From contig CAWHGD010000002.1 in assembly GCA_963828815.1 (NCBI GenBank), positions 158,125 through 222,124 of the forward strand: 64,000 nucleotides of DNA, in the 5' to 3' direction. Position 1 is the stretch's first letter; every line of letters starts with the position of its first letter. Below, piece after piece: positions 12,738-32,025 of the stretch. A program made the translations under genes and the position numbers. The DNA comes from an uncultured Chloroflexia bacterium (GTDB lineage Bacteria; Chloroflexota; Anaerolineae; Anaerolineales; Villigracilaceae). The notes under the pieces are model-generated. The model did not search any database, was not told where the DNA came from, and saw only the letters and a program-made list of their open reading frames with translations.

Positions 12738-13436
12738 ATGGAATCCTTGCCAGACCTTACCGACAGCCTCAGGTCCGTCAGGCACTTCCGCAACCTGAGC
12801 CTGCCTGATTTGACCACGATCGTTACCGCGGGGAAAATTCGGCGCATCCCGGCAAATACGACCATTTTCACTGAAGGTGATGCATGCGCCGGGATGTATG
12901 TTTTGCTCAAAGGCCGGGTGCATCTTTTTCAACTGGGTCCTCATGGAAAAGTGAATATCGTGGCGGTCATCGAGCCTGTCATCATGTTCAACGAGGTTGC
13001 CGTCCTCGACGGGGGACCAAACCCGCTTTCAGCCCTTGCGGTTGAGAATTGCCTCGTCTGGCAGATCGACCATCCTGCCTTCCAGTCGCTGATCGAACGC
13101 ATCCCCCAGGTGGGGGTGAGCCTGCTGCGGGTGCTGGCAAAACGCAACCGGGAGATGATCGCCCGCTATGATGACCTCTCGTTCCGTTCAGTATTGGCGC
13201 GCACAGCCAAATTGCTGCTCGACCTGAGCGAAAATGGTCAAAAAGTGATCATCCGGCGCGATTGTTCCATCGAAGAGCTGGCTTCCCGCGTGGTCACCGT
13301 ACCGGAGGCGATCAGCCGGTCGCTGAATTTGCTCAAGAGAGCCGAAGCCATCCGCGTGAGTTGCAGCGAGATCTCTATCCTCTCGGCAGAAGGATTGGCT
13401 GAATTTGTCCATATCGGGTCACTGGATCACGGTTGA
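12738..13436 (+). CDS. Crp/Fnr-family transcriptional regulator (copy 1)
   Basis: 232-aa ORF with a cNMP-binding-type beta-roll (FTEGDACAGMYVLLKGRVHLF, PVIMFNEVAVLDGGPNP) plus a C-terminal HTH (ELASRVVTVPEAISRSLNLLK). No FNR-type N-terminal Cys cluster. It is a paralogue of 20981..21736. Confidence 0.85.
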   Translation: MESLPDLTDSLRSVRHFRNLSLPDLTTIVTAGKIRRIPANTTIFTEGDACAGMYVLLKGRVHLFQLGPHGKVNIVAVIEPVIMFNEVAVLDGGPNPLSALAVENCLVWQIDHPAFQSLIERIPQVGVSLLRVLAKRNREMIARYDDLSFRSVLARTAKLLLDLSENGQKVIIRRDCSIEELASRVVTVPEAISRSLNLLKRAEAIRVSCSEISILSAEGLAEFVHIGSLDHG

Positions 13437-13462
13437 TTTTTCAGACCATCGGGAATTGGAAC

Positions 13463-14140
13463 TCATTTGCTTTCCGCGACGCGCCCCAATCCATCCTTAT
13501 CCGTCAGAACGAATTCCGTCCGGGTGACATCAATCAGTTTCCGGTCTGCAAAGCGATAGATAACCCGGCAAACCATCTCCCGGGTCGTGCCCACCCGGGC
13601 AGCCATCTCATCCAGGGTCAGGTGACGCGTGATGGCTGCCTCCCCGGCGTTCTCAAAATCATCCAGCAGCAGCCGCGCCAATCTACGGGAGATCGGCTGG
13701 AAAGCCAGTTCCTCAACGATGGCGCTGGCGCGCTGCATCCGCTGGATCATCAAGCGGCATAATTCCCAGGACATGCGCCCATGCGCGATGAAAACCGGTT
13801 CGATGATCTCACGCGACCATAAATAAACCCGCGCCGGGGTATGCGCCTCCAGGGTTGCCAGCAGCGGTGCCTGATCCTGGAAGAAAGCCAGCCCCCAGAA
13901 CAATTCGCCGGCACCGAATGTGGTAACCAGCAGGTTGCGCCCTTCCCCGGAGACCTTGACAGCATCCAGCTCCCCCTCGGCAACCAGGAACAAGTACGGC
14001 CAGACATCCCCCTGCATCACCAATGCTTCGCCTTTTTTCAAATCTTTCCTGGTCGCCTGTTTCGCCAGCAGATTACGTCCTTCTTCTTCCAGCGAGGCAA
14101 AAACAGGGTGAGTGCTCAGCAATTTATTCAACTCTTCCAT
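13463..14140 (-). CDS. Crp/Fnr-family transcriptional regulator (copy 2, divergent type)
   Basis: 225-aa ORF with a cNMP-binding fold (MQGDVWPYLFLVAEGELD) plus HTH (EMAARVGTTREMVCRVIYRF). It converges on 12738..13436 with a gap of only 26 bp. Confidence 0.85.
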   Translation of the reverse strand: MEELNKLLSTHPVFASLEEEGRNLLAKQATRKDLKKGEALVMQGDVWPYLFLVAEGELDAVKVSGEGRNLLVTTFGAGELFWGLAFFQDQAPLLATLEAHTPARVYLWSREIIEPVFIAHGRMSWELCRLMIQRMQRASAIVEELAFQPISRRLARLLLDDFENAGEAAITRHLTLDEMAARVGTTREMVCRVIYRFADRKLIDVTRTEFVLTDKDGLGRVAESK

Positions 14141-14147
14141 GGAAATA

Positions 14148-14182
14148 ATTATAAGTCATTCTTTCCTTGTTCAGTTACAAGG
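14148..14182 (-). promoter_or_regulatory. Leaderless-type -10 (TATAAT, 7 nt before ATG 14140) with an 18-bp palindrome over the -35 region
   Basis: The minus strand reads CCTTGTAACTGAACAAGG-gaaagaatgact-TATAAT-tatttcc-ATG. The palindrome at 14165..14182 contains TTGT-N6-ACAA. No SD is present. Confidence 0.4.
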
Positions 14183-14260
14183 TCTGTTGGTTTAGTATTA
14201 GATTACTCCCCCTGGTCGGAATAAACGCAGGCTCAAGTAACCTTTGTCACTGAAATGAAT

Positions 14261-14311: not shown

Positions 14312-14743
14312 ATGAACACATTGAGGACAACAATCCTGATCATGCTAACCGGGGGTGCTGTGCTCTTCATTTCAGCGTGCGGAGCCCGGGAACCGGCCTG
14401 CCAGTGGGCAACAGGAACGCCCAGGTATATGACCGCCCTTCCACCGGGCTCGTCAACCGCTGAGTCGACAACCCTGTCCCCGGCGCCCGTCAAATTGGAG
14501 ATCGGAGGCAGGGAAATTCTTGTGGACCAAATCGTCGAGGGTCCTCTATGCAATGGCGCCTGGAGCGGGATCGTGTATGTCAGCTGCAATGTCCAGGTCT
14601 TCCCCTGGGAAGAACAACCCACTTTCCTGAAGGACTGTAACCTGTCCATCGAACCGGGTACGATCGTTTATGTGGCCTACCATAATGACACCGCCTATTA
14701 CAACGGGTGCTCGTGTCATACCGGAGAAATCCCTGAACCTTGA
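14312..14743 (+). CDS. Cys-rich lipoprotein of unknown function
   Basis: 143-aa ORF with signal peptide plus lipobox (VLFISAC) and six further Cys, including a C-terminal GCSCH. No SD is present. Confidence 0.6.
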   Translation: MNTLRTTILIMLTGGAVLFISACGAREPACQWATGTPRYMTALPPGSSTAESTTLSPAPVKLEIGGREILVDQIVEGPLCNGAWSGIVYVSCNVQVFPWEEQPTFLKDCNLSIEPGTIVYVAYHNDTAYYNGCSCHTGEIPEP

Positions 14744-14774
14744 AACCATCTAATCAATCAAAAGGAGACTAATC

Positions 14775-15551
14775 ATGAAGAATAAGAATATCCTCGGAGG
14801 CATCCTGGCTGTGGTCGCCAGCCTGATGGGTATCATCGGGCATATGTTCCTATTTATGAAGTGGTACGTGGTAGGGATGCACACCCCCTCCGCAGAACCG
14901 GGATGTGAGATCCTGCTGAATTACATCCACCCGCTCATGGCCGATTTTGGGATCCTTGCCGGGATTCTGTTTGCGGTCAGCGCGTATGGATTCTTTTCAA
15001 AAAAGAACTGGGCTTTCTTTCTCACGGTCCTCGCGCTGGTGCTGGCCCTGCTGGGCAGCTGGTTCATCAACGTGCCCTACATGGCAGCGGGTTTGCCCCC
15101 CGTATATTTCATCCTCTTCTGGCCGTACGTGCTGCTTTATTTCCTGTTCCTGAAGGTGGTGGGGAGGATTTCCTGGAAAATCACCCTACTGGCACTGCTA
15201 ACCGGGATCGCTTACATTTTCTGCTGGATGAACGGCGTCGCCAGCACCAGCCGGATCATCACTATTGGAGATCCGATCTTCGTCCTCGTGCAGCGCCTGC
15301 ACTGGGTGGCGATGCTCGGCTGGGCCGTGGTCACGGTCGGGTTGATCATCAAGCCAAAGAATTGGCTGAGGGTGCTCGAACTCGTCGCCGGCTTGACCGA
15401 ACTCGTGGTTGGCATCCCTCTCGCGGCTGTGACAGCCCAACAGCTGGGAAGGTTCTCGCTCTTCGCCCTCGGTCCGATCATGTGCCTGGTCCTGGTCGTG
15501 CTCTTCTTGTGGCCAAATCTCTGGCAGCGGCTCACTGGAGCCTCCGATTAG
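14775..15551 (+). CDS. Polytopic membrane protein of unknown function
   Basis: 258-aa ORF, preceded by AAGGAG, with about 8 hydrophobic helices. I recognise no family. Confidence 0.6.
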   Translation: MKNKNILGGILAVVASLMGIIGHMFLFMKWYVVGMHTPSAEPGCEILLNYIHPLMADFGILAGILFAVSAYGFFSKKNWAFFLTVLALVLALLGSWFINVPYMAAGLPPVYFILFWPYVLLYFLFLKVVGRISWKITLLALLTGIAYIFCWMNGVASTSRIITIGDPIFVLVQRLHWVAMLGWAVVTVGLIIKPKNWLRVLELVAGLTELVVGIPLAAVTAQQLGRFSLFALGPIMCLVLVVLFLWPNLWQRLTGASD

Positions 15552-15609
15552 GAGCATCCCCTGGCAGGTTCGATGCCAGACGCTGCACACTTCACGATGT
15601 GAAATAGAT

Positions 15610-15635
15610 CCGGGGCTGGATGCCACCAGCCCCGG
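15610..15635. terminator. 10-bp GC-rich stem-loop between convergent genes (CCGGGGCTGG-atgcca-CCAGCCCCGG)
   Basis: Perfect inverted repeat between the stops of 14775..15551 (+) and 15668..17692 (-). The U-tracts are weak. Confidence 0.55.
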
Positions 15636-15667
15636 TTAAGTAACTATCGGGTCGCATGTGACAAGAA

Positions 15668-17692
15668 TCAAAGATATTCCTGCTTTTCTCTCTCACGTTC
15701 CGGCCATGCCGCCACCAGGAAACCGAAGATGAACATCAGGCTGCCTATCCATAACCAGTTGATCAAGGGATTATGATATACCTTGATAGGCGCTTGCGAT
15801 GGCGAGATGTTCTCCCAGTTAATCAGTACAACATATAAATCATCTGTCAGGGTGGAGCGCACCCCGGGTATCGTCATCGACTGACCGCTCGCTGTGTAAT
15901 AGTCACGACGTGGATAGAGTTTGCCCAGAAACTGTTCTCCTCGGAAAACGCTGAGGGCAGCTCGTGAAACAAAACGCCCTTCCGTGGAAGGGAACTGTGC
16001 CAGCGAGTCAAACCGGAGGCTATACCCGGCAATTTGAATATCTTCACCCACTGCAAGTGTCTTTTGAGTGGTGGTTTGGTACACTTCAATACCCAGGATG
16101 CCAATTGCCATGACCACCATGCTGAAATGGATAAAATAGCCACCATAACGGCGACGATTATGCCTGACCAGTTGCCAGAGGGCGACCAGGAAATTCTCCT
16201 TTTCCTTTTTTTGTCGGGAAAGTACCCCGCGCAAGAACTCAAACAGCGTTACGAAGATCACAAACCCCACCAGAGTAAAACCAACCAGCGCAATCCAGTT
16301 GTGAATCCCTAAGACGGCTAACACCACCAATAAAATGATTGAAAGGATGGCTGGTTTCCACAGGGTATGTCCCAGTGTCTGGTATGTGGATCTACCCCAA
16401 GCTGAAAGCGGAGCGATACCCATTAATGCCATCAATGCACCGAACAAAGGTCCATTGGCACGCAGGTAGAACGGCGGTCCGACGGTCATTTTCTGGTTGG
16501 TTACAAGCTCCGAGATCAAGGGGAAGATCACTCCCCAGAAGCAGACAATCAAAACACCCATAAAGAGTAGATTATTGAGCAGGAATAGCGCCTCGCGCGA
16601 AAACAAGGAGTGCATCTCGACTTCAGCACGCAGGTCTTTCCAGCGATATATTAACAAGGCAAGCGATGTGACAAAGGTGATTCCGATAAAGGCAAAGAAC
16701 ATCGGACCAATGGGGCTTTGCGCGAAAGCGTGAACCGAAGAAAACACGCCGGAGCGGGTCAGGAAGGTGCCGAAGATGACCAGGGCATAGGTCAAGATGA
16801 TGAGCAGCATGTTCCATTGTTTGAACATACCGCGTTTTTCCTGGATCATGACCGAGTGCAGGAAAGCCGTCCCGGTCAGCCAGGGCATCAGGGAGGCAGT
16901 TTCAACCGGGTCCCAGGCCCAGTAACCACCCCAACCCAGCACATCATATGCCCAGCGCATTCCAAGTACCAAGCCGAGAGACAGGAATAACCAGGCAACC
17001 AATGTCCAACGACGGGTGAGACGAATCCAGCGGTCATCTGATCGTCCGGTGACCAGAGCAGCGATGGCAAAGGCAAATGGTACGACAAAAGCGACAAAGC
17101 CCAGGTACAGCATGGGCGGGTGGATGATCATGCCTGGATGGCGTAGAAGGGGATTCAGACCCTGTCCCTCCACAGGTGTGACAGCAATTGCTCCTGCAGG
17201 AGCAAACATGCGCGGCACGAAATCGCCTGCAGCAGTCTGCCACCAGCGCGCAAATGGATTTTCGAAGAGAATTGTCAGGGACAGAAAAAAAGCAAGCGTA
17301 ATCGATATCACCCCGATGACCCAGGGCAAGAGTTCGCGGTCGCGTTCCCACTTGCGCAAGGTCACAGCCGAGGCAAAGGCTGCCATGAGCCACGACCAAA
17401 GAACTAGCGATCCGGCCTGCCCGCCCCACAGGGCAGTGAGCTTGAGATAGAAAGGCATGTCGTTACTTGTCACCGAGTAGACATATTCGATTTCATAATG
17501 TCCTGTGACGAGAAGATAGGCCAACGCAAAAACCGCAAGCGAGATAAGTGGAAAAGATACTTGCATGGAACGCCGGGCAGTTTCCACCCAGCGGTCAGAT
17601 TTTTTATAGTATCCCAATACCGCCGCTACCACGCTGAAAAGTAACAGCAGGAATGTCAGCACAAATACACCAAAGCCAAATTGAGCAAGCAT
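15668..17692 (-). CDS. ccmF: CcmF/NrfE-family cytochrome c haem lyase
   Basis: 674-aa polytopic ORF with LWGGQAGSLVLWSWL near the N-terminus and the Trp-rich haem-handling motif GWGGYWAWDPVE. SD AGGAG is present. No ccmABCDE, ccmH or ccmG is adjacent. Confidence 0.85.
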   Translation of the reverse strand: MLAQFGFGVFVLTFLLLLFSVVAAVLGYYKKSDRWVETARRSMQVSFPLISLAVFALAYLLVTGHYEIEYVYSVTSNDMPFYLKLTALWGGQAGSLVLWSWLMAAFASAVTLRKWERDRELLPWVIGVISITLAFFLSLTILFENPFARWWQTAAGDFVPRMFAPAGAIAVTPVEGQGLNPLLRHPGMIIHPPMLYLGFVAFVVPFAFAIAALVTGRSDDRWIRLTRRWTLVAWLFLSLGLVLGMRWAYDVLGWGGYWAWDPVETASLMPWLTGTAFLHSVMIQEKRGMFKQWNMLLIILTYALVIFGTFLTRSGVFSSVHAFAQSPIGPMFFAFIGITFVTSLALLIYRWKDLRAEVEMHSLFSREALFLLNNLLFMGVLIVCFWGVIFPLISELVTNQKMTVGPPFYLRANGPLFGALMALMGIAPLSAWGRSTYQTLGHTLWKPAILSIILLVVLAVLGIHNWIALVGFTLVGFVIFVTLFEFLRGVLSRQKKEKENFLVALWQLVRHNRRRYGGYFIHFSMVVMAIGILGIEVYQTTTQKTLAVGEDIQIAGYSLRFDSLAQFPSTEGRFVSRAALSVFRGEQFLGKLYPRRDYYTASGQSMTIPGVRSTLTDDLYVVLINWENISPSQAPIKVYHNPLINWLWIGSLMFIFGFLVAAWPEREREKQEYL

Positions 17693-18005
17693 GAAGGCTC
17701 CTAGATGACAGATTTATTAGCATGCCATGTGCAAATAGAGCAGGATGCAATTAGGCTATTTGCCGTGAACCACCTCACTAAGGACTTCTTACTGGTATTT
17801 GGCAGGGCACTTCAGCAATAGCTCAACGGCATAGAAGATATCATTCTCTCCCAGATGACCGGTGGCAATCGACCATGCCTTATCACTCAGCATATCAGGT
17901 TGCGGGTAATTGTATACGATAATCAACCGCGCCCATGATGAATCACGGTTGCTGGGATGTCCAACAAGACGATCACATTGAATTTCGCCCGACGTTGAGA
18001 TGACC

Positions 18006-18039: not shown

Positions 18040-18056
18040 TAGAATAACATATATAT

Positions 18057-18749
18057 TTAGAGAGTCGGAACCTCTACTTTGACGATTTTCTGATCCTGTG
18101 TCAACCAGAGCCCCCTTGCGAGCAAGGCTATCCCACCAAGAATCAAGATCGTACCGAAGATATAGATCGGCAAAGCAAGTACGTCCACCCAATTACTTCC
18201 CATATAAATGTGCGAGGCGCCAACCCACATCGGCGTTGATAGGATGACAGCACCAGACACCATGGCTGCCAGCCCGCCACCGGTTTTTTTATCAGCACCT
18301 TTGCCGCCCTTGGTAAAATCTACTTTTGCCCGCAGACCGGGGATGAGAAGCAGCAGGAAAACGATCAGTGTGAGGACATTGATATAGAACACTACATTGG
18401 CAGGCGCAGCTTTACCGATCACCGAAAGGGATGTAAAGTAATGGATCGCGTTCAGTACCGTACCGATCCCCAGGACAATTATGGCATTTCGATATGCATG
18501 TTTACCGCCACGTATCAATCCGACCGTGACGGCAATGCCTGCAATCCCGATAGCGATCGTTGTAAAGACAAAGGTTTGATAAAGCCACCGGTAATCTACT
18601 GGCTTTATCAATATCCAATACGGAGGGTAATTCTTTGTAAAGAAGGCTGCACATGACGTGCCGGCACCGCCTAGAACATTCATGGCTGCGGTCATTGCCA
18701 TGACAACAATGGCGAATACTCGGATAATTTTTCCTGAAGTGTTTTTCAT
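18057..18749 (-). CDS. Polytopic membrane protein, unassigned family (copy A; paralogue of 26332..27015)
   Basis: 230-aa ORF and last gene of the cytochrome operon. Shared blocks with copy B:
- LGGAGTSC in TM1.
- (Y/F)xWLY...IAIG.
- GxKxAYR.
- NAIHYFTS versus GAIHMAFS.
- VLTLI(V/I)FLL..IPGL...VDF followed by a Lys/Gly-rich loop. Confidence 0.65.
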   Translation of the reverse strand: MKNTSGKIIRVFAIVVMAMTAAMNVLGGAGTSCAAFFTKNYPPYWILIKPVDYRWLYQTFVFTTIAIGIAGIAVTVGLIRGGKHAYRNAIIVLGIGTVLNAIHYFTSLSVIGKAAPANVVFYINVLTLIVFLLLLIPGLRAKVDFTKGGKGADKKTGGGLAAMVSGAVILSTPMWVGASHIYMGSNWVDVLALPIYIFGTILILGGIALLARGLWLTQDQKIVKVEVPTL

Positions 18750-18803
18750 CGCTTATCCTCCTGAAGAATTCTATATCGATACAAGCCAGAAATCAAGTAT
18801 TGA

Positions 18804-19694
18804 TTACGGCACTTCCTCTGATAAATTCCAAGGATTATTTGCAAAGTGACAACGTTCACATAACGCCTGCTTGACGATATTATGACTTGCATATGGAATC
18901 GAGGATTCAGGCAAAACTGTAACCCAATTTCCTTGCTCATCAGGGCCGACTGCCAGCCCCGCCGCGTCATGGCAAGCCCAGCAAGTCACTGCTTCGTGAT
19001 TCTTTTCATGACCTGGGATGGGAGCCGGTGGATTTAAGGCATTCGCATGGCATACTTCTGATGCACATGTAGCAGTGGTAGTATGGGCATCGTGACATTG
19101 TGTGCAGGTATACCCGGCATGTGCATTCGCAAGATCCGGCGTTTCATGACCCGCAATGTCAATCTGGCCGTGGCATTTCAGACACAGGTCGGTTGTAGAA
19201 GCGACATTCTCGTATTCATCGATCGGTGGGATCGATAACCAGGCGTACTCCGGTTGGACCTCGCCTTTTTTCAGCCGATGGCAAACGTTGCATGGTACAT
19301 TATCCCAATCGGCTTCTGCTATCGTTGGGGGCGGAGGGGCAATCTCGAATTTACAGACTGCACAACTCGCTGGCATGTCGTCCATCGAGGGGACATAGTT
19401 GATTGGCGCGTGACAGCGCGCGCACGTGCTGTTTATACCCAACACATCCAATACATAAGTATGTGCATGGGGGCTTGCCTCCCACAGGGATTGGATTTGA
19501 GAGGGGGCAATTTCTGTTGGAATACCGGTAGGTTGGGGAGCCCCGGTGGGGCTCCCCTCGTTTGATGGAACTGATGGAACCTGTGGCGACACCTGTCCCT
19601 GCGGGGGAGTCTCCTTCTCCGGTTGACAGGCGGTCAACCCTGCAACCAGGAATGCTGTTGCAATCAGACTGAGGAATAGGGTTCTACTCTGCAA
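18804..19694 (-). CDS. Multihaem c-type cytochrome lipoprotein (8 candidate haem sites, including CxxCK and CX4CH)
   Basis: 296-aa ORF with a TTG start after AAGGTG. It has a signal peptide plus lipobox (VAGLTAC) and a Pro/Ser/Gln linker. The sites, in order, are CARCH, CAVCK, CNVCH, CLKCH, CTQCH, CASEVCH, CWACH and CERCH. Confidence 0.8.
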   Translation of the reverse strand: MQSRTLFLSLIATAFLVAGLTACQPEKETPPQGQVSPQVPSVPSNEGSPTGAPQPTGIPTEIAPSQIQSLWEASPHAHTYVLDVLGINSTCARCHAPINYVPSMDDMPASCAVCKFEIAPPPPTIAEADWDNVPCNVCHRLKKGEVQPEYAWLSIPPIDEYENVASTTDLCLKCHGQIDIAGHETPDLANAHAGYTCTQCHDAHTTTATCASEVCHANALNPPAPIPGHEKNHEAVTCWACHDAAGLAVGPDEQGNWVTVLPESSIPYASHNIVKQALCERCHFANNPWNLSEEVP

Positions 19695-20808: not shown

Positions 20809-20872
20809 AAAGTATCACAATCACTCTTGCAAGTCATTGACAACTGTCAAAGTCCGACTTGATTATTGTCAA
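20809..20872 (-). promoter_or_regulatory. Two FNR-like boxes and a -10 region for the cytochrome operon
   Basis: The proximal box is a perfect palindrome, TTGACAACTGTCAA (20837..20850). The distal box is TTGATTATTGTCAA (20859..20872), with centres 22 bp apart. On the minus strand the proximal box is followed after 15 nt by ATTGTGATACT (20821..20811; hexamer TACTTT at 20814..20809). That puts the box centre 41.5 nt before a start predicted at about 20802. Confidence 0.55.
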
Positions 20873-20974: not shown

Positions 20975-20980
20975 ATTAAT

Positions 20981-21736
20981 ATGGAAACACCTGAAACATT
21001 AGCAGAAAGACTTGGACATGTCAGCCACTTCTTGAAACTACCCATGGCGGACAGATTGGCCATCATCCTTGCCGGTCAAATGCGACTTTTCTCGCCCGAT
21101 TCAGTAATAATCACTGAAGGAGAGCCTTGTGCCGGTATGTTCGTATTATTACGAGGGCATGTGCACATCTGTAAACTTGGTTTAAAAGGGCAGCAAAGCA
21201 TTATTGCAGACATAGATCCAGTCATCATGTTCAACGAGGTGGCATTATTGGATGGAGGACCTAATCCATACACAGCCATTGCAACTCAAAATTCCCTTGC
21301 CTGGCAAATCAGTTACGAGGCTTACCAAAAACTGCTCCATCGATATGCCCAAGACCAATACATGGAAGTATCACTTGGCCTTCTGGGGATTATGGCAAGC
21401 CGCTATAGACAACTGTTAGAAAATTACGCCGATCTTTCTTTTCTAACTGTGCCGAATCGCGTTGCCAAATTGATTTATGAATTGAGTGCCCAAGGCCAAG
21501 TACCCATAAACCGTCATGAAAACTCGATCAACGAGATGGCTGCACACATAGCCTCTGTTCCTGAAGCGATCAGCCGGTCGCTGAACATCTTAAAATGTCA
21601 AGGAATTATTACGACATCACGGACAACTATCACCGTCCTGGAACCATTAGAGCTGGCCAGACTGGCGAAAACTGAGCTGAATAATTTATTTGTATACGGC
21701 CGTAAGAAATCAAGTATTCCAGTCTTGGAAGATTGA
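20981..21736 (+). CDS. Crp/Fnr-family transcriptional regulator (copy 3; paralogue of 12738..13436)
   Basis: 251-aa ORF with ITEGEPCAGMFVLLRGHVHIC and PVIMFNEVALLDGGPNP, plus HTH EMAAHIASVPEAISRSLNILK. It is visibly AT-richer than its neighbours (three hand-counted 60-nt lines gave 38-50% GC, versus about 60% for a line in copy 1). Confidence 0.85.
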   Translation: METPETLAERLGHVSHFLKLPMADRLAIILAGQMRLFSPDSVIITEGEPCAGMFVLLRGHVHICKLGLKGQQSIIADIDPVIMFNEVALLDGGPNPYTAIATQNSLAWQISYEAYQKLLHRYAQDQYMEVSLGLLGIMASRYRQLLENYADLSFLTVPNRVAKLIYELSAQGQVPINRHENSINEMAAHIASVPEAISRSLNILKCQGIITTSRTTITVLEPLELARLAKTELNNLFVYGRKKSSIPVLED

Positions 21737-21762
21737 TTAAGAGTTGAAAGTCGCCCCCTAAT

Positions 21763-21804
21763 TTGACATAAATCAAAGACAGTCGAAGCGCATTGTGATA
21801 CTAT
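21763..21804 (+). promoter_or_regulatory. FNR-like box TTGACATAAATCAA plus -10 region ATTGTGATACTAT
   Basis: The box lies at 21763..21776. After 15 nt comes the same 11-mer ATTGTGATACT (21792..21802) seen in the cytochrome promoter, with hexamer TACTAT at 21799..21804. The box centre is 41.5 nt before a start predicted at about 21811. SD GGAGAA precedes ATG 21871. Confidence 0.55.
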
Positions 21805-21870
21805 GTACAAAGTTCACGATGCGGGTTTGATTATTTCATTCATATCGATTACCGACGGAGAATAGCAATA

Positions 21871-23339
21871 ATGGCCAAACGTTTAAGTTTTCTCTTTCGC
21901 TCCACCAAAGGCCTGATCCTGGTGGCGATCGCCATGATCGGACTGGAGACCGCCATCTTCGGGATGCTCTCCGGCCCAATGGCTGAGTTGGGTGTGCGCG
22001 ACTTCATCATCCGCATTCCTGAAGATGGACCTTGTCCAGGCTGAGCGCGAAGGACGCATCATCATCCTGTACCACTCCATCGCCATGGCCGTGGTGGCCA
22101 TCGAAACCTACATGATCACCAGCCTGCTGAAGATGAAAGAATTCTACAAGATGGCGGTACGGGTGCTCATCACTGTTGGCTATATCCTGACCATGATCTT
22201 CGGCATGGGCTTCGCCTATTGGGGTCATAACTGGGCGCTGCATGGACTCTACATTACCGGGTTGAGTCTGATCTTCTTTGCCGGTGTCCTGCTGGTCATT
22301 GCCCTCTGGCCGTGGAACAAGGAATACTACCAGCCGGATAAAGACCTATTCCCGCACCAAAAAAGGCGTGGATATGGAGCGCGTGGCCTTCTTCGCTGCC
22401 GCTCTCACCACGGTCATTTCTGCATTATTCGGTGCTGTCCCCGGTTCGTACTTTGGCAATGGCTTTGAAACCTTCCTGGCCGAGAACATTATCCGGCCAC
22501 CCGAAAAGACCATCATGGAATACTCTGTCATCGGTCACCTGCACATCATGCTGGCGCTGATCGCCATCATGATCACCCTCATCGTCGGACGCTGGCTGAA
22601 CTTCAAGGGCATCCTGCACAAGATCGCCATGCCGTTGATGATCCTGGGTACTATCGTTCTCAACCTGGGCGTCTGGGGGGTGGTCACACCTCTCGAACCG
22701 ATCGCCCACATGATCATCTATGTCGGCGCAACACCATCCATGCTGGCGGCCTTGATGCTGGTCATTTTCACCTGGGACAAGCTCATCCGCGATGGTATTG
22801 CCGGCATCCAAAAACCGAACGGTTGGCAGAAGTTCAAGGCACTGCTTCGTGATCCACTCCGTTTCGGCCCCATGTGGCAGATGGTCTTCATGAACTTCAC
22901 CACCAGCTTTCTCGGAATTTTCATGGCTGTGCGCCTGGATGAGATCTTCCGTGTCTGGCCTGCTCACGAAGAACGCATCGAACTGACCGGCCACTGGCAC
23001 GTTCTTTCAGCCATCATCGCCACCATCATCCTGCTCTATTACGGCGATATGATCGGACTGAAGGGAAAACTCCGCCAGGTCTATGGCTGGTCCATCATCA
23101 TTCTATCCGATCTCGCCTTCGGCTCCGTCACCATCTTCGAAATGAAACGGTTGTTCATCACAGAAGCCACCCAGCAGCCATTGGTCAACACCCTCATGCT
23201 GTTGATGGACATTGGTCTTGGTCTGTTGCTGGTCGTCCTGGCGATGGTAATGATCTGGCGCTTGCTCGACCTGTTCAGGAAGAAAGGACGCTGGACGGAA
23301 GAAGTGGATCACGAACTCTCGGAGGAGGTGAGCAAATGA
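21871..23339 (+). pseudogene. His-rich polytopic membrane protein of unassigned family, split by two +1 frameshifts
   Basis: There are three collinear segments:
- 21871..22044: MAKRLSFLFRSTKGLILVAIAMIGLE...
- The 21992..22468 frame: ...KMDLVQAEREGRIIILYHSIAM...YWGHNWALHG...
- The 22278..23339 frame: ...MERVAFFAAALTT...IGHLHIML...TGHWHVLSA...
Start coordinate mod 3 runs 1,2,0, with shifts near 22000-22040 and 22340-22365. About 12 or more helices carry paired His. Confidence 0.6.
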
Positions 23340-24240
23340 AGCGCACATTTCTGTCCATCATCCTGCTTTCTGCTGTATTGGTCTCCTGCGCCTCCGTGGA
23401 CCTGAATGCCCCCGTCCCCACCTTCGACACTGGCGTGGACCCGGACTCCTGGGCTCTCATCCCGGCTGGACCCTTCCTTGACGGGTCAACATGATGACCC
23501 GGCTTCTATTGACTACGATTACCAGATGATGGTCACCGATGTGACCGTCGCGCAGTACGTGGATTTCCTGAACATTGCCCTGGCTGATGGCACGCTCAAA
23601 ATCGACAGTGAACAGATAGTCGGTTTCTACCCCGGTGATCAATTCCACGCTGTCAAGCATGAAATTGAGATTGCTGCCGCGGAATACATCTTTGTCCCTT
23701 TGAACGATCCGGCTTCGCGTTTCACCTTTGACGGCTCCACATTCTCGGTCATCCCCGGCTACGAGAACCACCCGATGACCAATGTCTCCTGGTTCGGCGC
23801 CTGGGGCTACTGCGGGTACTACGGCTTCAGCCTGCCGACCGAACTCGAATGGGAAAAAGCTGCCCGCGGATCGGCAGACAATCGTCCCTTCCCCTGGGGT
23901 GACGAGATTGCCCAAAACAACGCCAATTTCTACACCAGCCGCGATCCTTTTGAAGAAATGAGCTCCTTCGGTTCGCGCACCACTCCGGTCGGCTTCTATA
24001 ACGGGAATACTTATGACGGTTATGTTACGCTCAACTCTGCCAGCCCATACGGCCTGTACGACATGGCCGGGAATGTCTGGCAGTGGACCGGGGATGTATA
24101 CGAGGGTCAGCACTACCGCTATCATGCGCGGCGGCTCAAAGGATACCTATGACATGGATCTGCGTATCTGGGTGCGCAACAACGCCACGCCAACCTATTA
24201 CAGTCCTGGTGTGGGTTTCAGATGTGCCAGAAATCCGTGA
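23336..24240 (+). pseudogene. FGE-sulfatase (SUMF1/DUF323) domain lipoprotein, split by two +1 frameshifts
   Basis: The ATG at 23336 overlaps the upstream stop (ATGA). MKRTFLSIILLSAVLVSC is a lipobox. Then come IPAGPFL | TGQHDD...MMVTDVTVAQYVDFL...NVSWFGAWGYC...LPTELEWEKAARG...GNVWQWTGDVYEGQHYR | MRGGS...GVGFRCARNP*. Frames run 2,0,1, with shifts near 23480 and 24125. Confidence 0.7.
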
Positions 24241-24290
24241 TCAAAGTAGTCTTGGATGTGGTGCCTTGAATATAATGGTATAAATACCAT

Positions 24291-25189
24291 TTGATCCTCA
24301 TAGAGAAAAGTCTGGAGAACTCCGTGGCTGAAATGATCGCAAAATTCCGTCTCTATTGGTCCCTTACTAAATCTCTACAGACAGGCCTGCTGCTCGCCAC
24401 CGGCCTGGCGGGGTACATGACTGCCCGCTGCCCGGTGATGCACTGGTACGATTTTCTTGGACTGGCCGTGAGCCTGTTCCTGGCGATCGCAGGCAGCACG
24501 ATCATCAATATGTGGTATGACCGCGATATCGATGCTGTCATGAACCGCACTCATCACCGACCGATGGCGGATGGACGCGTTGCCCCTGCCGAAGCCCTGC
24601 GGCTGGGACTGGTTTTTTCGGTGCTGGGTGTCGGGATGGCAATCGCCATGTCCCCCCTCTACGGATTGATCGTTTTTGCCGGGCTGTTCTTTGACGTGGT
24701 GATTTACACGCTGTGGCTCAAGCGGCGAACCTGCTGGAGCATCATCTGGGGAGGGATCGCAGGGGGCATGCCCATCCTGGCCGGGCGCGCCTTTGGCACC
24801 GGTTCCATTGACGGCATCGGCATCCTGCTTGACCCTGGCAGTATTGTTCTGGATCCCCACCCACATCCTGACCTTTTCCATGCGCTACTTCGACGATTAT
24901 CAGGCTGGCAAAGATACCAACCTTCCCATCCACCTATGGTTTTCACGCCACTCGCCTCACGATCGCAATCTCGAGTGTCCTCGCGGCTGCCTGCATCGCA
25001 ACGGCCGGCGTCCTGATCGGAATCGAATGGGGCTTCCTTCGGCTTCTGGCTGTGCTCTCTAGCGGATTGCTTATCCTGGCGGTAGCCAGTATCTTCCGAC
25101 CCTCCGAACGCGTCAACTTCGGGCTGTTCAAATACGCTTCCATGTACATGCTGGGAGCCATGCTCCTGATTTCGTTGAGCGTGTTGTGA
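24291..25189 (+). pseudogene. ctaB: Protohaem IX farnesyltransferase (haem O synthase, CtaB/CyoE-like UbiA prenyltransferase), split by two +1 frameshifts
   Basis: NMWYDRDIDAVMNRTHHRPMADGRV and WGGIAGGMPILAG are CtaB-like. The protein continues in the next frame (LAVLFWIPTHILTFSMRYFDDYQAGK) and then a third frame (IPTFPSTYGFHATRLTIAI...LLISLSVL*, stop at 25187..25189). Frames run 0,1,2, with shifts near 24830 and 24912. The likely start is ATG 24333. Confidence 0.7.
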
Positions 25190-25791
25190 AAATAACCGTC
25201 ATCAACCGACTCATTCTCCTGGTAATGTGCCATGTTGCCGGATACCAGATCATTACCGGCGTTGAGGGATTGGCAACCCTCCCAATGATTGCCTACACCA
25301 TCGGCTTCGGTATCCTGCTCGTTGCCGGATTGCTGATCATCATCCTCGGTTATGATGCGCTGGATAGCCCGGTCGTGGTTATTCTTTCGACGGTCATCCC
25401 GCTCAGCCTATCGCTGGGGCTGGTCTGGGAGCACTTGACCGTATACCGGACACTCTATCTGGTTTTCGTCATCCTCGGGTTCCTGGCAATTGTCATCACC
25501 CGCTCCTTTCCAATGAAGAATAAGCTGCCGGTCATCGTACTGGCATGTGTTCACGGTATCGCCGGGATGACAATCTTCCTGCTTCCCTTCTTCCTGGTTT
25601 TCACCGGCAGTGTTGCCCCCGGTTTCGTCTTGGTTGGCCTGGGCGGAGCGCTGATTGGCCTGGGGGGGTTGTTACTTTCCTTCCTGAAAACCGGTAAACC
25701 CATCCTATCTCGAATTACGATCTTGAAGATCCTGCCAGGGTTGCTTTTAGTTACAACTGCCGCCTTTGTGCTCGGTTTTTCTGCAGCTTGA
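25186..25791 (+). CDS. Polytopic membrane protein of unknown function
   Basis: 201-aa ORF with a GTG start overlapping the ctaB stop (GTGA), about 6 helices and Gly-rich C-terminal helices. Confidence 0.5.
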   Translation: MKITVINRLILLVMCHVAGYQIITGVEGLATLPMIAYTIGFGILLVAGLLIIILGYDALDSPVVVILSTVIPLSLSLGLVWEHLTVYRTLYLVFVILGFLAIVITRSFPMKNKLPVIVLACVHGIAGMTIFLLPFFLVFTGSVAPGFVLVGLGGALIGLGGLLLSFLKTGKPILSRITILKILPGLLLVTTAAFVLGFSAA

Positions 25792-25815
25792 TTTCTTATC
25801 CTGGGAGCAAACTCT

Positions 25816-26262
25816 GTGGAACAAACATCGAAATGGAACCCTGCAACAAAGAAAATCTGGCTGCATCTCACTGCCGGAATCATTTGGTCGGGTGTGGGTA
25901 TCATGCTGGTCGCGTTTGCCACCGGTTGGCTGGGTACGGTCCATTCATGGATAGTCGTTCTACTGATTTTGGCTGGCTCGCTTCTGGCTACCGGGATTTA
26001 TTTCTTTGGCTTTTCAAAACTGGCCTTCAGCAACATCCTACGCATCAACAATATTCCCAGGGAAAGGGTTTGCATATTCGCCTTCCAGAAATGGACTAGC
26101 TACCCCCTGGTCCTGGTGATGATCGCCATGGGGATCTACCTGCGCCGGTTCTCCCCCATCCCCAAGCCTTACCTGGCGATCCTGTACCTCGGGCTGGGCG
26201 CAAGCTTGTTTGTTTCCAGCCTCCAGTACTATTCTCAAGTAGTACGCGCCAACCGTACATGA
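25816..26262 (+). CDS. Small membrane protein of unknown function
   Basis: 148-aa ORF with about 4 helices. No family recognised. Confidence 0.5.
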   Translation: MEQTSKWNPATKKIWLHLTAGIIWSGVGIMLVAFATGWLGTVHSWIVVLLILAGSLLATGIYFFGFSKLAFSNILRINNIPRERVCIFAFQKWTSYPLVLVMIAMGIYLRRFSPIPKPYLAILYLGLGASLFVSSLQYYSQVVRANRT

Positions 26263-26280
26263 GCATCTACTGTCCGCGCG

Positions 26281-27015
26281 TTGCTACTTCGGTTGGACAA
26301 TTTATTCCCGATATTCGATAAGGAGAAGATTATGTCAAGAAATAAGTGGTGGGCCAGGCTTTTGCGTATTGTCGGGATCGTCTTCATGAGTCTGACTGCG
26401 CTCTTTACCTTGCTGGGCGGCGCGGGCACATCCTGCGTGGCCCTCAACCCGACCGGCTTCGGTGCTACGTTTGCTCCGATCGCCAAATTCCAGTGGCTGT
26501 ACATCCTGTTTGTACTCGTCACAGTTGCCATTGGGGTCATGGGAGTCCGGGCAGTTGTCTTGCTGGTTAAGGGCAGGAAGAACGCCTATCGTTACTCACT
26601 GATCGCGCTGCTGGCAGGTGTTGTGGTTGGTGCCATCCACATGGCATTCTCGCGCACTTTGCGTGGTGGATCCTCCATGCCCGTGGATATGGTCGTATAC
26701 ACCACCGTGCTGACCCTGATCATCTTCCTGCTTTTCCGCATCCCCGGTCTCTGGCAGGGTGTTGACTTTGCCAGGCCCGAGGGCGAAAAGAAGACAGGCA
26801 AACAGGCTGCTGCCATCGCCCTGGGCGCTACCGGCCTGCTATCTCTCACCATTCAGTTCCTGATGGCCCCCACCCACACGATCAACGGTATCAATTACGC
26901 GGATGTCTGGCATACAGCGCTGACATTCCTCGGTCTTGCATTGATCCTGGGTGCTGTGGCGACGGCGGTCATTACTGAATTCTCACTGTTACGGCGCAAG
27001 TCGCTGGCCGAATAA
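26281..27015 (+). CDS. Polytopic membrane protein, unassigned family (copy B; paralogue of 18057..18749)
   Basis: The track ORF starts at TTG 26281. ATG 26332 (MSRNKWW...), preceded by AAGGAG, is the likely start (227 aa). It shares LGGAGTSC, WLY, KNAYR, GAIHMAFS and VLTLIIFLLFRIPGL..VDF blocks with copy A. Confidence 0.65.
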   Translation: MLLRLDNLFPIFDKEKIMSRNKWWARLLRIVGIVFMSLTALFTLLGGAGTSCVALNPTGFGATFAPIAKFQWLYILFVLVTVAIGVMGVRAVVLLVKGRKNAYRYSLIALLAGVVVGAIHMAFSRTLRGGSSMPVDMVVYTTVLTLIIFLLFRIPGLWQGVDFARPEGEKKTGKQAAAIALGATGLLSLTIQFLMAPTHTINGINYADVWHTALTFLGLALILGAVATAVITEFSLLRRKSLAE

Positions 27016-32022: not shown

Positions 32023-32025
32023 TTG

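What the first reader, a model, noticed from the sequence alone, without database searches (positions are those of the whole stretch)
12738..27015. Candidate Crp/Fnr-wired extracytoplasmic redox island made of multihaem lipoproteins and unassigned membrane proteins
Within about 14 kb there are:
- three Crp/Fnr-family regulators (12738, 13463, 20981);
- three promoters with the same FNR-class-II-like geometry (separate finding);
- two paralogous 8-site multihaem lipoproteins;
- a stand-alone CcmF/NrfE-type haem lyase;
- a Cys-rich lipoprotein and an FGE/SUMF1-domain lipoprotein;
- a haem O synthase-like gene;
- six polytopic membrane proteins I cannot assign to a family, two of them paralogues that bracket the island.

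I do not recognise any known terminal reductase or oxidase catalytic subunit here. I also do not recognise a known quinol dehydrogenase (NrfD, NapC/CymA or cytochrome b type). If this is a respiratory or detoxification pathway, its membrane-coupling parts would be of an undescribed type.
Basis: partly seen in the sequence, partly recalled or inferred. Interest (0 to 1): 0.75.

Follow-up and report, generated by a model that had tools for sequence, protein, structure and literature searches.

The report
Hidden oxidase-like operon plus cytochrome cassette
The island is real and conserved in Anaerolineales bacteria; its core is an unannotated membrane protein predicted to fold like the catalytic subunit of respiratory haem-copper oxidases, the cytochromes are an add-on cassette, and three core genes in this copy carry frameshifts.

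Summary
The island combines two modules.

**Module 1, conserved operon (81 Anaerolineales loci examined).** Order: Crp, (Cys-rich lipoprotein), TM258, a 488-aa membrane protein, FGE-domain lipoprotein, haem O synthase, (hemerythrin), TM201, (TM148), TM244.
- The 488-aa protein has no Pfam, NCBIfam or PDB sequence match.
- Its AlphaFold model (pLDDT 88.6, pTM 0.90) resembles only haem-copper oxidase/NOR subunit I (TM 0.5-0.6).
- Its invariant histidines lie in TM2, TM6, TM7/8 and TM10. A weak profile alignment puts four in register with canonical haem/CuB ligands.

**Module 2, accessory cassette (3 of 81 loci).** It holds two octahaem lipoproteins with an invariant CxxCK site, their partner TM230, an NrfE-like lyase and a third Crp. 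It is inserted into module 1.

**State of this window.** Six uncompensated +1 insertions break the 488-aa gene, the FGE gene and the haem O synthase gene. ORFs 21992 and 22278 are one gene. The hemerythrin gene is absent. Substitution patterns still show purifying selection, so the breaks are errors or very recent.

**Most likely function.** A Crp-controlled haem-O-dependent NO or O2 reductase of a new, divergent HCO-like type. This is inferred, not shown.

The parts
12738..13436 (+). Crp/Fnr-family regulator Crp1 (232 aa); 48% identical to Crp3
   Evidence: Pfam cNMP_binding 1.4e-20 + HTH_Crp_2. Paralogy shown. A Crp gene lies upstream of the operon in about 45 of 81 related loci.
13463..14140 (-). 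Crp/Fnr-family regulator Crp2 (225 aa), divergent from the Cys-lipoprotein/TM258 genes
   Evidence: Pfam cNMP_binding + HTH_Crp_2. The arrangement Crp2(-) CysLipo(+) TM258(+) recurs in related loci.
14312..14743 (+). Cys-rich lipoprotein (143 aa) with a lipobox Cys and conserved C30, C80, C92, C109, a GCSCH motif and H124. Candidate metal-binding or chaperone protein; function unknown.
   Evidence: No Pfam or NCBIfam hit. Conservation in 24 family members. Found in about 24-26 of 81 loci directly upstream of TM258.
14775..15551 (+). TM258, a polytopic membrane protein of unknown fold. In most relatives it is the gene immediately upstream of the 488-aa protein.
   Evidence: No Pfam or NCBIfam hit. 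Present in 49-52 of 81 loci. No profile similarity to CyoA/C/D.
15668..17692 (-). Stand-alone CcmF/NrfE-type haem lyase (674 aa). Part of the inserted cassette.
   Evidence: Pfam CcmF_C 1.5e-54 and Cytochrom_C_asm 2.2e-38. TIGR00353 scores 437.7 bits, below its 569 cutoff. A WWD-type motif WGGYWAWDPVE is visible in the sequence. Within 10 kb of the 488-aa gene in only 1-2 of 81 loci.
18057..18749 (-). TM230, a six-helix membrane protein and dedicated partner of the cytochrome pair. Paralogue of TM244.
   Evidence: 38% identical to 26281-27015. The MHC-MHC-TM230 cassette is conserved in L093-L096. AF2 pLDDT 82.6 with no PDB fold match, TM below 0.35.
18804..19694 (-). Octahaem lipoprotein MHC296 (6 CxxCH + CAVCK + Cx4CH)
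   Evidence: Motif count. Paralogy with MHC341. CxxCK is kept in all family members recovered from loci.
19722..20747 (-). Octahaem lipoprotein MHC341 (7 CxxCH + CVTCKF)
   Evidence: Pfam Cytochrome_C7, MtrC-MtrF_II-IV and Paired_CXXCH. CxxCK is present in 110 of 110 full-length homologs. No real similarity to NrfA or ONR.
20837..20872 (.). Two TTGA-N6-TCAA (Crp/Fnr-type) palindromes in the divergent MHC341/Crp3 intergenic region
   Evidence: Together with 21763 these are the only three perfect matches in the 64-kb window.
20981..21736 (+). Crp/Fnr-family regulator Crp3 (251 aa). Belongs to the inserted cassette.
   Evidence: Pfam hits. A Crp gene lies divergent from the cytochrome pair in L093 as well. 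Best PDB sequence relatives are mycobacterial CRP and DNR.
21763..21776 (.). TTGACATAAATCAA palindrome 108 bp upstream of the start of the 488-aa gene
   Evidence: In 81 related loci, 14 of 55 such boxes fall within 300 bp upstream of the homologous gene.
21871..23339 (+). 488-aa, 12-helix membrane protein with a predicted haem-copper oxidase subunit I-like fold. Broken here by +1 insertions at 22014 and 22344.
   Evidence: Homologs of 488-491 aa at 82-95% identity, with no Pfam hit. AF2 pLDDT 88.6, pTM 0.90. Foldseek gives HCO/NOR subunit I at TM 0.5-0.6, probability 1.0. hhalign places four His in register. Conserved His listed. Frameshifts shown.
23336..24240 (+). FGE-sulfatase-domain lipoprotein (300 aa when repaired). 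Broken by +1 insertions at 23482 and 24123.
   Evidence: Pfam FGE-sulfatase 1.6e-31. Present in 80 of 81 loci directly after the 488-aa gene. Naturally fused to it in P0123. Only C159 and C296 are conserved besides the lipobox Cys.
24291..25186 (+). Haem O synthase (CyoE/CtaB type). Broken by +1 insertions at 24832 and 24906. The start is either 24291 (TTG) or 24333 (ATG).
   Evidence: The window copy scores 153.7 bits on TIGR01473 over profile positions 2-163 only. The intact orthologue in L001 scores 220.1 against a 210.3 cutoff. Present in 74 of 81 loci. Repair shown.
25186..25791 (+). TM201, a polytopic membrane protein of unknown function with conserved H123
   Evidence: No family hit. 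Present in 59 of 81 loci. Conservation. The hemerythrin gene that precedes it in L001 is absent here.
25816..26262 (+). TM148, a small membrane protein and a variable member of the operon
   Evidence: No family hit. Present in 15 of 81 loci.
26332..27015 (+). TM244 (227 aa from the ATG at 26332; the ORF opens at 26281). Paralogue of TM230 and last gene of the operon. Conserved GGxGTxC, H120, SMPVD and H199.
   Evidence: Paralogy. Present in 59 of 81 loci. Conservation.

Best explanation
The locus combines two units.

**Unit A (ancestral, order-wide in Anaerolineales).** This is a Crp-controlled operon. Its central product is a 488-aa, 12-helix membrane protein that is a very divergent relative, or at least a structural analogue, of subunit I of haem-copper oxidoreductases. 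I propose the following, all inferred.
- It binds a low-spin haem through H68 (TM2) and H376 (TM10).
- It binds a high-spin farnesylated haem (haem O, made by the operon's own haem O synthase) through H374.
- It binds a non-haem metal (Cu or Fe) through H222, H224 and H279.
- It reduces a small diatomic oxidant, NO or O2, on the outer half of the membrane.

The FGE-domain lipoprotein sits on the outer face as an obligatory partner, in the place where canonical enzymes carry subunit II. TM258, TM201, TM148 and TM244 would be accessory subunits or assembly factors. The hemerythrin found in some relatives would be an O2/NO-binding accessory.

**Unit B (accessory cassette).** It holds two octahaem lipoproteins with an invariant CxxCK haem site, their membrane partner TM230, an NrfE-like lyase plausibly needed for the CxxCK site, and Crp3. 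It has been inserted between TM258 and the 488-aa gene. It probably feeds or drains electrons on the outer face.

**State of this window.** Three genes of unit A carry six +1 insertions and the hemerythrin gene is missing. As written, this copy cannot make the enzyme.

**Shown:** gene content, synteny, predicted fold, invariant residues and the frameshifts.
**Inferred:** cofactor assignment, substrate, subunit roles and the electron path.
For: **Fold and active-site residues**
- The AF2 model has pLDDT 88.6 and pTM 0.90, with 12 TM helices.
- The only PDB folds with TM above 0.4 are HCO/NOR subunit I: ba3 0.60, aa3 0.55, cbb3 0.52 and cNOR 0.52, all at Foldseek probability 1.0.
- Histidines in TM2, TM6 (HxH) and TM10 (HxH) and at the TM7/8 turn are invariant or nearly so.
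- hhalign against seven A-family subunits I aligns 280 columns. It places H222 on CyoB H284, H279 on H333, H374 on H419 and H376 on H421.

**Genomic links**
- A haem O synthase that passes the TIGR01473 equivalog cutoff is in the operon in 74 of 81 loci.
- It is still adjacent in a 31%-identical homolog.
- The FGE lipoprotein is adjacent in 80 of 81 loci and fused in P0123.
- In L057 a canonical COX2+COX1 pair, a Crp gene and a CopD-like gene lie directly upstream.

**Regulation**
- Crp genes flank the operon.
- TTGA-N6-TCAA boxes are enriched upstream of the gene in relatives.

**Selection**
- The protein is 75-95% identical across the order.

**Cassette**
-.
Against: - There is no sequence-level support from standard tools. 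Pfam COX1 does not hit any of 27 family members even at E<=10.
- PDB sequence and profile searches find nothing.
- The hhalign result is statistically weak: pairwise E 0.012, probability 3.6%.
- Single-sequence comparisons with NorB, NnrS and an Anaerolineaceae COX1 give nothing.
- Foldseek E-values are 0.05-0.5 with rmsd of 7-9 A.
- One of the six canonical histidines (CyoB H334) is replaced by Met/Lys. The Tyr cofactor position holds Met226. No cupredoxin or cytochrome c subunit II is encoded in the operon.
- I could not inspect model coordinates, so the clustering of the proposed ligands is untested.
- No experimental data exist, and the substrate is a guess.
- In this window the genes are frameshifted.
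Confidence: 0.55

Rival explanations
1. The island is one integrated extracytoplasmic pathway whose active parts are the two octahaem lipoproteins (CxxCK catalytic haems, NrfA-like chemistry on nitrite, NO or hydroxylamine, or metal reduction). The unassigned membrane proteins would form a new kind of quinol dehydrogenase.
For: - CxxCK is invariant in 110 of 110 homologs, and an NrfE-type lyase is adjacent.
- TM230 always accompanies the cytochrome pair and has no known fold.
- Crp boxes lie in the cytochrome promoter region.
- The cassette repeatedly sits beside the 488-aa operon.
Against: - The cytochromes are present in only 3 of 81 loci that carry the rest of the island.
- The cassette also occurs away from the island (L093).
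- The proteins hold 8 haems in roughly 240-280 mature residues, typical of electron-transfer wires, and show no similarity to NrfA or ONR beyond a haem motif.
- A better catalytic candidate, the HCO-like protein, is present.
Confidence: 0.2
2. The 488-aa protein only resembles HCO subunit I superficially, as a 12-helix bundle. It would really be a transporter, a haem O or copper handling/assembly factor, or something unrelated, and the operon would not encode a reductase.
For: - No sequence-profile relationship to COX1 was found, and the hhalign statistics are weak.
- There is no subunit II. The FGE-like partner resembles structural lipoproteins such as GldK/PorK more than enzymes.
- A CopD-like gene lies nearby in L057.
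Against: - HCO/NOR subunit I is the only fold family matched with TM above 0.4. All other hits (GPCRs, pyrophosphatase) have TM of 0.2 or less.
- Seven invariant intramembrane histidines sit in the helices where HCOs carry ligands, four of them in register.
- Sequence conservation is extreme, typical of catalytic cores.
Confidence: 0.2
3. In this particular genome the operon is a recently inactivated pseudogene cluster: six true frameshifts plus loss of hemerythrin. Only the cytochrome cassette and the upstream genes would remain functional.
For: - Six uncompensated single-base insertions are confined to three consecutive genes, and none lies in a homopolymer.
- Other genes of the window checked are intact.
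- The hemerythrin gene is cleanly missing.
Against: - Removing the six bases restores perfect full-length ORFs.
- The share of non-synonymous codon differences is 0.23-0.31, the same as in intact neighbours, so selection has not been relaxed.
- Six independent frameshifts, all insertions and two per gene, without other decay look more like sequence or assembly error.
- Hemerythrin is also absent from many intact relatives.
Confidence: 0.3

Closest known systems
Haem-copper oxidoreductase superfamily, subunit I (A/B/C oxygen reductases, cNOR/qNOR and the eNOR, sNOR, gNOR, nNOR families of Murali et al. 2024, PMC11214002)
   Same: - Predicted 12-helix fold.
- His in TM2 and an HxH in TM10, aligned to the haem ligands.
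- His in TM6 and at the TM7/8 turn, aligned to two CuB/FeB ligands.
- Lacks the Tyr cofactor, as NORs do.
- A haem O synthase lies in the operon, as cyoE does in cyoABCDE.
- Crp/Fnr-type control, as for many NOR and cbb3 operons (established knowledge).
   Different: - Not detected by PF00115 or any sequence search.
- The third CuB/FeB histidine (CyoB H334) is missing. Instead there is an extra invariant His two residues after the TM6 His, and another in TM4.
- No cupredoxin or cytochrome c subunit II is present; an FGE-domain lipoprotein is the constant partner, sometimes fused.
- The accessory membrane proteins are unrelated to subunits III/IV.
[quoted passage not shown]
E. coli cytochrome bo3 operon cyoABCDE
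   Same: A catalytic membrane subunit is encoded together with haem O synthase. A haem O-dependent active site is inferred.
   Different: There are no CyoA, CyoC or CyoD homologues. Identity to CyoB is about 11-17% and only in a weak profile alignment.
NrfA / octahaem nitrite reductase with the NrfEFG lyase
   Same: A CxxCK haem-binding motif and a neighbouring CcmF/NrfE-type lyase. That NrfE is needed for the CxxCK haem of E. coli NrfA is established knowledge.
   Different: - There is no sequence similarity beyond one haem motif.
- The proteins are much smaller (296-341 aa for 8 haems) and are lipoproteins.
- No NrfF/G, NrfH or NrfBCD genes are present.
- The lyase is not adjacent to the cassette in L093-L096.
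NirV / FGE-sulfatase-domain proteins next to nirK in denitrifiers
   Same: An extracytoplasmic FGE-sulfatase-domain protein is co-encoded with an N-oxide or O2 type redox enzyme under a Crp-family regulator. The pSymA NirV-like ORF is weakly hit by the FGE300 profile at E 3e-4.
   Different: The relationship is very distant. FGE300 is a lipoprotein tied to a membrane protein rather than to a copper nitrite reductase. The function of NirV is itself unknown.

Membership tests
Haem-copper oxidoreductase superfamily (subunit I) | Twelve-helix subunit I fold | tested here: met
   The AF2 model was compared with the PDB. aa3, ba3, cbb3 and cNOR subunit I score TM 0.5-0.6 at probability 1.0, and no other fold exceeds TM 0.35. 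This is a predicted structure, not an experimental one.
Haem-copper oxidoreductase superfamily (subunit I) | Significant match to the COX1 sequence profile (PF00115) | tested here: not met
   No COX1 hit for any of 27 family members even at E<=10. The precomputed Pfam field is empty for 120 homologs. PDB sequence and profile searches are empty.
Haem-copper oxidoreductase superfamily (subunit I) | Six invariant histidines: TM2 (low-spin haem), TM6 (CuB), TM7 HH (CuB) and TM10 HxH (both haems) | tested here: not met
   Four are in register in hhalign: H222/H284, H279/H333, H374/H419 and H376/H421. An invariant TM2 His (H68) exists but was not aligned. The H334 position holds Met/Lys. So five of six are plausible and one is replaced; gNOR is a precedent for replacing one ligand (PMC11214002).
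Haem-copper oxidoreductase superfamily (oxygen reductases) | Cross-linked active-site Tyr (H+4 in TM6 for the A and B families) | tested here: not met
   The aligned position is the conserved M226. A C-family-type Tyr from TM7 was not examined.
Haem-copper oxidoreductase complexes | Adjacent subunit II (cupredoxin, or cytochrome c such as NorC/CcoO) | tested here: not met
   No COX2 or cytochrome c domain is found in the conserved operon. The partner is an FGE-domain lipoprotein.
Haem-copper oxidoreductase superfamily | Two haems plus Cu or Fe bound; O2 or NO reduction | not testable with these tools
   This needs purification, haem HPLC, metal analysis and activity assays.
Haem O synthase (CyoE/CtaB, TIGR01473) | Score above the equivalog cutoff over the full length | tested here: met
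   The intact orthologue in L001 scores 220.1 bits against a 210.3 cutoff, over profile 2-278 of 281. The window copy reaches only 153.7 bits over profile 2-163 because of two frameshifts.
Crp/Fnr transcription factors | cNMP-binding-like sensor domain plus a C-terminal Crp-type HTH | tested here: met
   All three proteins meet this.
FNR proper (O2-sensing [4Fe-4S]) | N-terminal Cys cluster plus a central Cys | tested here: not met
   None of the three sequences has an N-terminal Cys cluster (sequences). NF008365 Fnr scores 21-22 bits against a 228 cutoff.
CcmF/NrfE haem lyase | Cytochrom_C_asm + CcmF_C domains and a WWD motif | tested here: met
   Pfam hits. WGGYWAWDPVE is visible in the sequence. 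It stays below the curated NCBIfam subfamily cutoffs: 437.7 against 569, and 392.3 against 927 for NrfE.
Formylglycine-generating enzyme (true FGE) | Catalytic Cys pair in the C-terminal region | tested here: inconclusive
   The domain is present. Only C159 and C296 are conserved besides the lipobox Cys. The region before GFRC has no CxxxxC, but this was compared with the human FGE motif from memory, with no formal alignment. The best NCBIfam hits (GldK, EgtB) are far below their cutoffs.
NrfA / octahaem nitrite reductase | CxxCK catalytic haem within an NrfA/ONR-homologous fold | tested here: not met
   The CxxCK motif is present and invariant. The only similarity to ONR is a 30-residue haem motif at E 0.14.

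The most novel reading that the evidence does not exclude
The 488-aa protein and its FGE-domain partner define a previously unrecognised, deeply divergent branch of the haem-copper oxidoreductase superfamily, or a sister fold family.
- It would have a His-x-His + His non-haem metal site, haem O, no Tyr cofactor and no cupredoxin or cytochrome c subunit.
- It would work as an NO (or high-affinity O2) reductase in the largely anaerobic Anaerolineales.
- The scan matched 378 stretches in GTDB species genomes, and more than 3000 database proteins were found.
- This activity is invisible to current annotation and to marker-gene surveys of denitrification and oxygen respiration.
Probability: 0.4. 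Interest if true: 0.85.

Novelty: new variant of a known kind. Interest (0 to 1): 0.7.

Why it matters
- **Missed activity in environmental surveys.** Anaerolineales are among the most abundant bacteria in sediments, wetlands, digesters and wastewater plants. Budgets of NO/N2O production and O2 consumption rely on recognising HCO-family genes by sequence. An order-wide, strongly conserved enzyme with an HCO-like core that no profile detects would be missed by all such surveys.
- **Natural test case for bioenergetics.** It would show how far the HCO active site can be rebuilt, with different metal ligands and a non-cupredoxin partner. That bears on long-standing questions about the evolution of O2 versus NO reduction.
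- **New cytochrome families.** The conserved CxxCK octahaem lipoproteins and their fold-less membrane partner are a further uncharacterised pair.
- **Practical annotation lesson.** The two 'separate' ORFs at 21992 and 22278, and the truncated FGE and haem O synthase genes in this window, are artefacts of six single-base insertions.

Tried and rejected
1. An exact-sequence look-up of the window's CcmF found no record.
2. Sequence and profile searches of the 488-aa family against the PDB found nothing. tblastn against plasmids found nothing. Pfam at E<=10 on 27 members gave no COX1, NnrS or other meaningful family.
3. hhalign of the family against single sequences of S. meliloti NorB and NnrS and against an Anaerolineaceae COX1 gave no signal. 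Global hhalign failed. The greedy local alignment did not place the TM2 His on CyoB H106.
4. Profiles of TM258, TM201, TM148, TM244, the Cys-lipoprotein and FGE300 were compared with CyoA, CyoB, CyoC and CyoD and with each other. No relationship emerged, so I rejected the idea that these are subunit II, III or IV homologues.
5. The structure prediction of TM230 followed by a PDB fold search gave no match. Its assignment as a cytochrome b-, NrfD- or NapC-like quinol dehydrogenase is therefore unsupported, though not excluded.
6. A search with the wrong spacing (TTGAC-N5-GTCAA) was uninformative.
7. Literature searches found no paper describing this protein family. The library covers open-access papers only.
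8. I checked whether the whole window is error-prone. Ten other genes have full-length domain matches, so the frameshifts are local.

Full report
**1. What is in the sequence**

- Three Crp/Fnr-family regulators: 12738-13436 (+), 13463-14140 (-) and 20981-21736 (+).
- A Cys-rich lipoprotein at 14312-14743.
- A CcmF/NrfE-type lyase at 15668-17692 (-).
- Two paralogous multihaem lipoproteins at 18804-19694 (-) and 19722-20747 (-), 30% identical with E 4e-28.
- An FGE-sulfatase-domain protein and a UbiA/haem O synthase-like gene.
- Membrane proteins with no family hit at 14775, 18057, 21992/22278, 25186, 25816 and 26281.

Each cytochrome has eight haem-attachment sites including one CxxCK. The membrane proteins at 18057 and 26281 are paralogues at 38% identity, but 18057 is internal, so they do not bracket the island.

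**2. Frameshifts and a missing gene**

Three-frame translation and a base-by-base comparison with a 92%-identical metagenome contig (L001) gave three results.
- ORFs 21992 and 22278 are pieces of one gene.
- The FGE gene and the haem O synthase gene are also split.
- The cause is six isolated, uncompensated single-base insertions at 22014, 22344, 23482, 24123, 24832 and 24906. None is in a homopolymer.

Deleting those six bases restores full-length ORFs of 488, 300 and about 282 codons.

The share of non-synonymous codon differences from L001 in the three broken genes is 0.23-0.31. That matches the intact neighbours, so selection has not been relaxed. Ten other genes of the window have full-length domain matches.

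The insertions are therefore either sequence or assembly errors or very recent events. I cannot decide which without reads.

The 186-aa hemerythrin gene sits between the haem O synthase and TM201 genes in L001-L004. It is cleanly absent here.

**3. The neighbourhood is conserved and consists of two modules**

The repaired 488-aa protein has more than 3000 database relatives. The best 120 are 82-95% identical, 488-491 aa long (a few are shorter or longer), and have no Pfam domain.

A scan of one genome per GTDB species found 378 stretches encoding a relative. The best 80 are all Anaerolineales or Chloroflexota MAGs.

tblastn and ORF-level comparison of the window proteins against 81 such loci gives the typical order: Crp, (Cys-lipoprotein), TM258, 488-aa protein, FGE lipoprotein, haem O synthase, (hemerythrin), TM201, (TM148), TM244.

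| Gene | Loci with it (of 81) |
|---|---|
| FGE lipoprotein | 80 |
| Haem O synthase | 74 |
| TM201 | 59 |
| TM244 | 59 |
| TM258 | 49 |
| Cytochrome pair | 3 |
| Lyase (within 10 kb) | 1 |

- In the window lineage, the block CcmF, TM230, MHC296, MHC341, Crp3 is inserted between TM258 and the 488-aa gene.
- The three-gene cassette MHC-MHC-TM230 also occurs away from the operon with its own divergent Crp (L093), or convergent to it (L095).
- The inserted block is 94-98% identical in protein to L001, whereas TM258 and TM201 are only 78% and 69% identical. This mosaic fits recent exchange of the cassette.

**4. What the 488-aa protein is**

There is no Pfam, NCBIfam or PDB sequence hit.

A full scan of 1.84 billion cluster representatives found only 304 related clusters, so the family is narrow. 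One member, P0123 (785 aa), is a natural fusion with the FGE domain behind an extra hydrophobic segment.

An AlphaFold2 model built on 27 diverse members is confident (pLDDT 88.6, pTM 0.90) and has twelve long helices.

Foldseek against the PDB gave these matches to subunit I of haem-copper oxidoreductases, all at probability 1.0.

| Enzyme | TM-score |
|---|---|
| ba3 | 0.60 |
| aa3 | 0.55 |
| cbb3 | 0.52 |
| cNOR | 0.52 |

Every other hit has a TM of 0.35 or less (the GPCR hits about 0.2). E-values are poor (0.05-0.5) at about 12% identity.

Invariant or near-invariant residues are H68 (TM2), H124 (TM4), H222 and H224 (TM6), H279 (start of TM8), H374 and H376 (TM10), plus E204, R208, M226 and E367.

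A profile-profile alignment with seven A-family subunits I is statistically weak: E 0.012, probability 3.6%, 280 columns. It nevertheless gives this register.

| Family residue | E. coli CyoB residue | Role in CyoB |
|---|---|---|
| H222 | H284 | CuB ligand |
| H279 | H333 | CuB ligand |
| H374 | H419 | High-spin haem ligand |
| H376 | H421 | Low-spin haem ligand |
| Met/Lys | H334 | CuB ligand (replaced) |
| M226 | Y288 | Tyr cofactor (replaced) |

The intact haem O synthase passes the TIGR01473 equivalog cutoff, 220.1 against 210.3. It is still the next gene in a 31%-identical homolog that lacks the FGE gene.

In L057 a canonical COX2+COX1 pair, a Crp gene and a CopD-like gene lie directly upstream of TM258 and the 488-aa gene.

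Taken together, I read the protein as a very divergent HCO-like haem protein that uses haem O. The known HCO families, including eNOR, sNOR, gNOR and nNOR, are identified by sequence. [quoted passage not shown] This family does neither.

**5. The partners**

- **FGE300.** It is a lipoprotein. Its only conserved cysteines besides the lipobox are C159 and C296. Its best named relatives (GldK/PorK, EgtB) are far below their cutoffs. It is probably not a formylglycine-generating enzyme. It more likely acts as an outer-face subunit, as its fusion in P0123 suggests.
- **Cys-rich lipoprotein.** It has six conserved cysteines besides the lipobox Cys, including a GCSCH motif. A role as a metal site or chaperone is possible.
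- **TM258, TM201, TM148 and TM244.** They show no profile similarity to CyoA, CyoC or CyoD, or to each other.
- **TM230.** Its model (pLDDT 82.6, six helices) has no fold match in the PDB.

**6. The cytochrome cassette**

All 110 full-length homologs of MHC341 carry 6-7 CxxCH plus one CxxCK, nearly always CxxCKF. MHC296 relatives keep it too.

There is no real similarity to NrfA or octahaem nitrite reductase.

In E. coli, NrfE is needed for haem attachment to the CxxCK of NrfA (established knowledge). That makes the neighbouring NrfE-like lyase a plausible dedicated maturation factor. However, the lyase is not adjacent to the cassette in L093-L096.

**7. Regulation**

The three regulators are generic Crp/Fnr proteins. 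Crp1 and Crp3 are 48% identical. None has an FNR-type Cys cluster. The nearest solved relatives are mycobacterial CRP and DNR.

The only three perfect TTGA-N6-TCAA palindromes in the 64-kb window lie in the MHC341/Crp3 intergenic region (20837 and 20859) and 108 bp upstream of the 488-aa gene (21763).

In the 81 related loci, 14 of 55 such boxes fall in the 300 bp upstream of the homologous gene. That region is under 2% of the sequence.

Crp-type control of the operon is thus supported. The effector (O2, NO, cAMP or other) is unknown.

**8. Mechanism proposed**

All of this is inferred. A Crp-family sensor activates the operon. The 488-aa protein carries a low-spin haem (H68/H376), a high-spin haem O (H374) and a neighbouring Cu or Fe (H222, H224, H279). 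It reduces NO or O2, with the FGE lipoprotein as an outer-face subunit.

- **Pointing to NO:** there is no active-site Tyr, glutamates are conserved, a hemerythrin weakly resembling RIC/YtfE sits in some operons, and an FGE-domain protein is associated as with NirV.
- **Pointing to O2:** haem O is the cofactor of oxygen reductases.

I cannot separate the two.

The cytochrome cassette probably exchanges electrons on the outer face, where it is present. In this window the enzyme cannot be made from the sequence as written.

**9. Verdict**

The novelty lies less in the cytochromes than in an order-wide, unannotated HCO-like family with an altered ligand set and an FGE-domain partner.

Literature searches in the held library found no paper describing this protein family.

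I rate it a new variant of a known kind, with interest 0.7.

Noticed in passing
window 22014, 22344, 23482, 24123, 24832, 24906: Six isolated +1 insertions, two in each of three consecutive genes. None is in a homopolymer and all are insertions. Removing them restores perfect ORFs, and substitution patterns show no relaxed selection. The pattern looks more like local sequence error than decay, but it is unresolved.
   Followed up: yes
window 25173-25186 compared with L001 10779-11353: The hemerythrin gene (186 aa, weakly RIC/YtfE-like) that sits between haem O synthase and TM201 in close relatives is cleanly absent from the window.
   Followed up: partly
window 14389-27923 compared with L001: Divergence is mosaic. 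The CcmF-TM230-MHC-MHC-Crp3 block is 94-98% identical in protein to L001. Flanking TM258 and TM201 are only 78% and 69% identical. This suggests recent exchange of the cassette between lineages.
   Followed up: partly
window 27923-32300: About 4.4 kb is present in the window but not in L001. It lies between the SDR gene and the next gene shared with L001 (annotated there with a faint Glyco_hydro_25 hit). It carries an NAD-kinase-like gene (27873-28988) and two large ORFs (29048-30631 and 30628-32022) that I did not scan.
   Followed up: no
window 34819-36463: A gene pair corresponds to L001 Oxidored_molyb + Ferric_reduct (an MsrPQ/YedYZ-like periplasmic reductase). The same pair also lies near the cytochrome cassette in L093.
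   Followed up: no
window 41943-42982 (-): Adjacent OsmC-like and AhpC/TSA peroxiredoxin genes add another oxidative-stress theme in the window.
   Followed up: no
P0123 (785 aa, metagenomic): A natural fusion of the 488-aa membrane protein with the FGE-sulfatase domain through an extra hydrophobic segment. This is Rosetta-stone evidence that the two proteins work together on the outer face.
   Followed up: partly
L057 3113-11461: In Anaerolineaceae UBA8523, a Crp gene, a small COX2, a canonical COX1, a second Crp, a cupin and a CopD-like gene lie directly upstream of TM258 and the 488-aa gene.
   Followed up: partly
L098 7146-10588: A 31%-identical relative of the 488-aa protein (P0167, 535 aa) is followed directly by a haem O synthase-type gene. 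It has no FGE gene and is preceded by an unassigned 219-aa protein and an HxlR regulator.
   Followed up: partly
window 10150-12610 (-): Phytoene/squalene synthase-like and phytoene desaturase-like (amine oxidase family) genes form the left border of the island. They are not conserved next to it in relatives.
   Followed up: no
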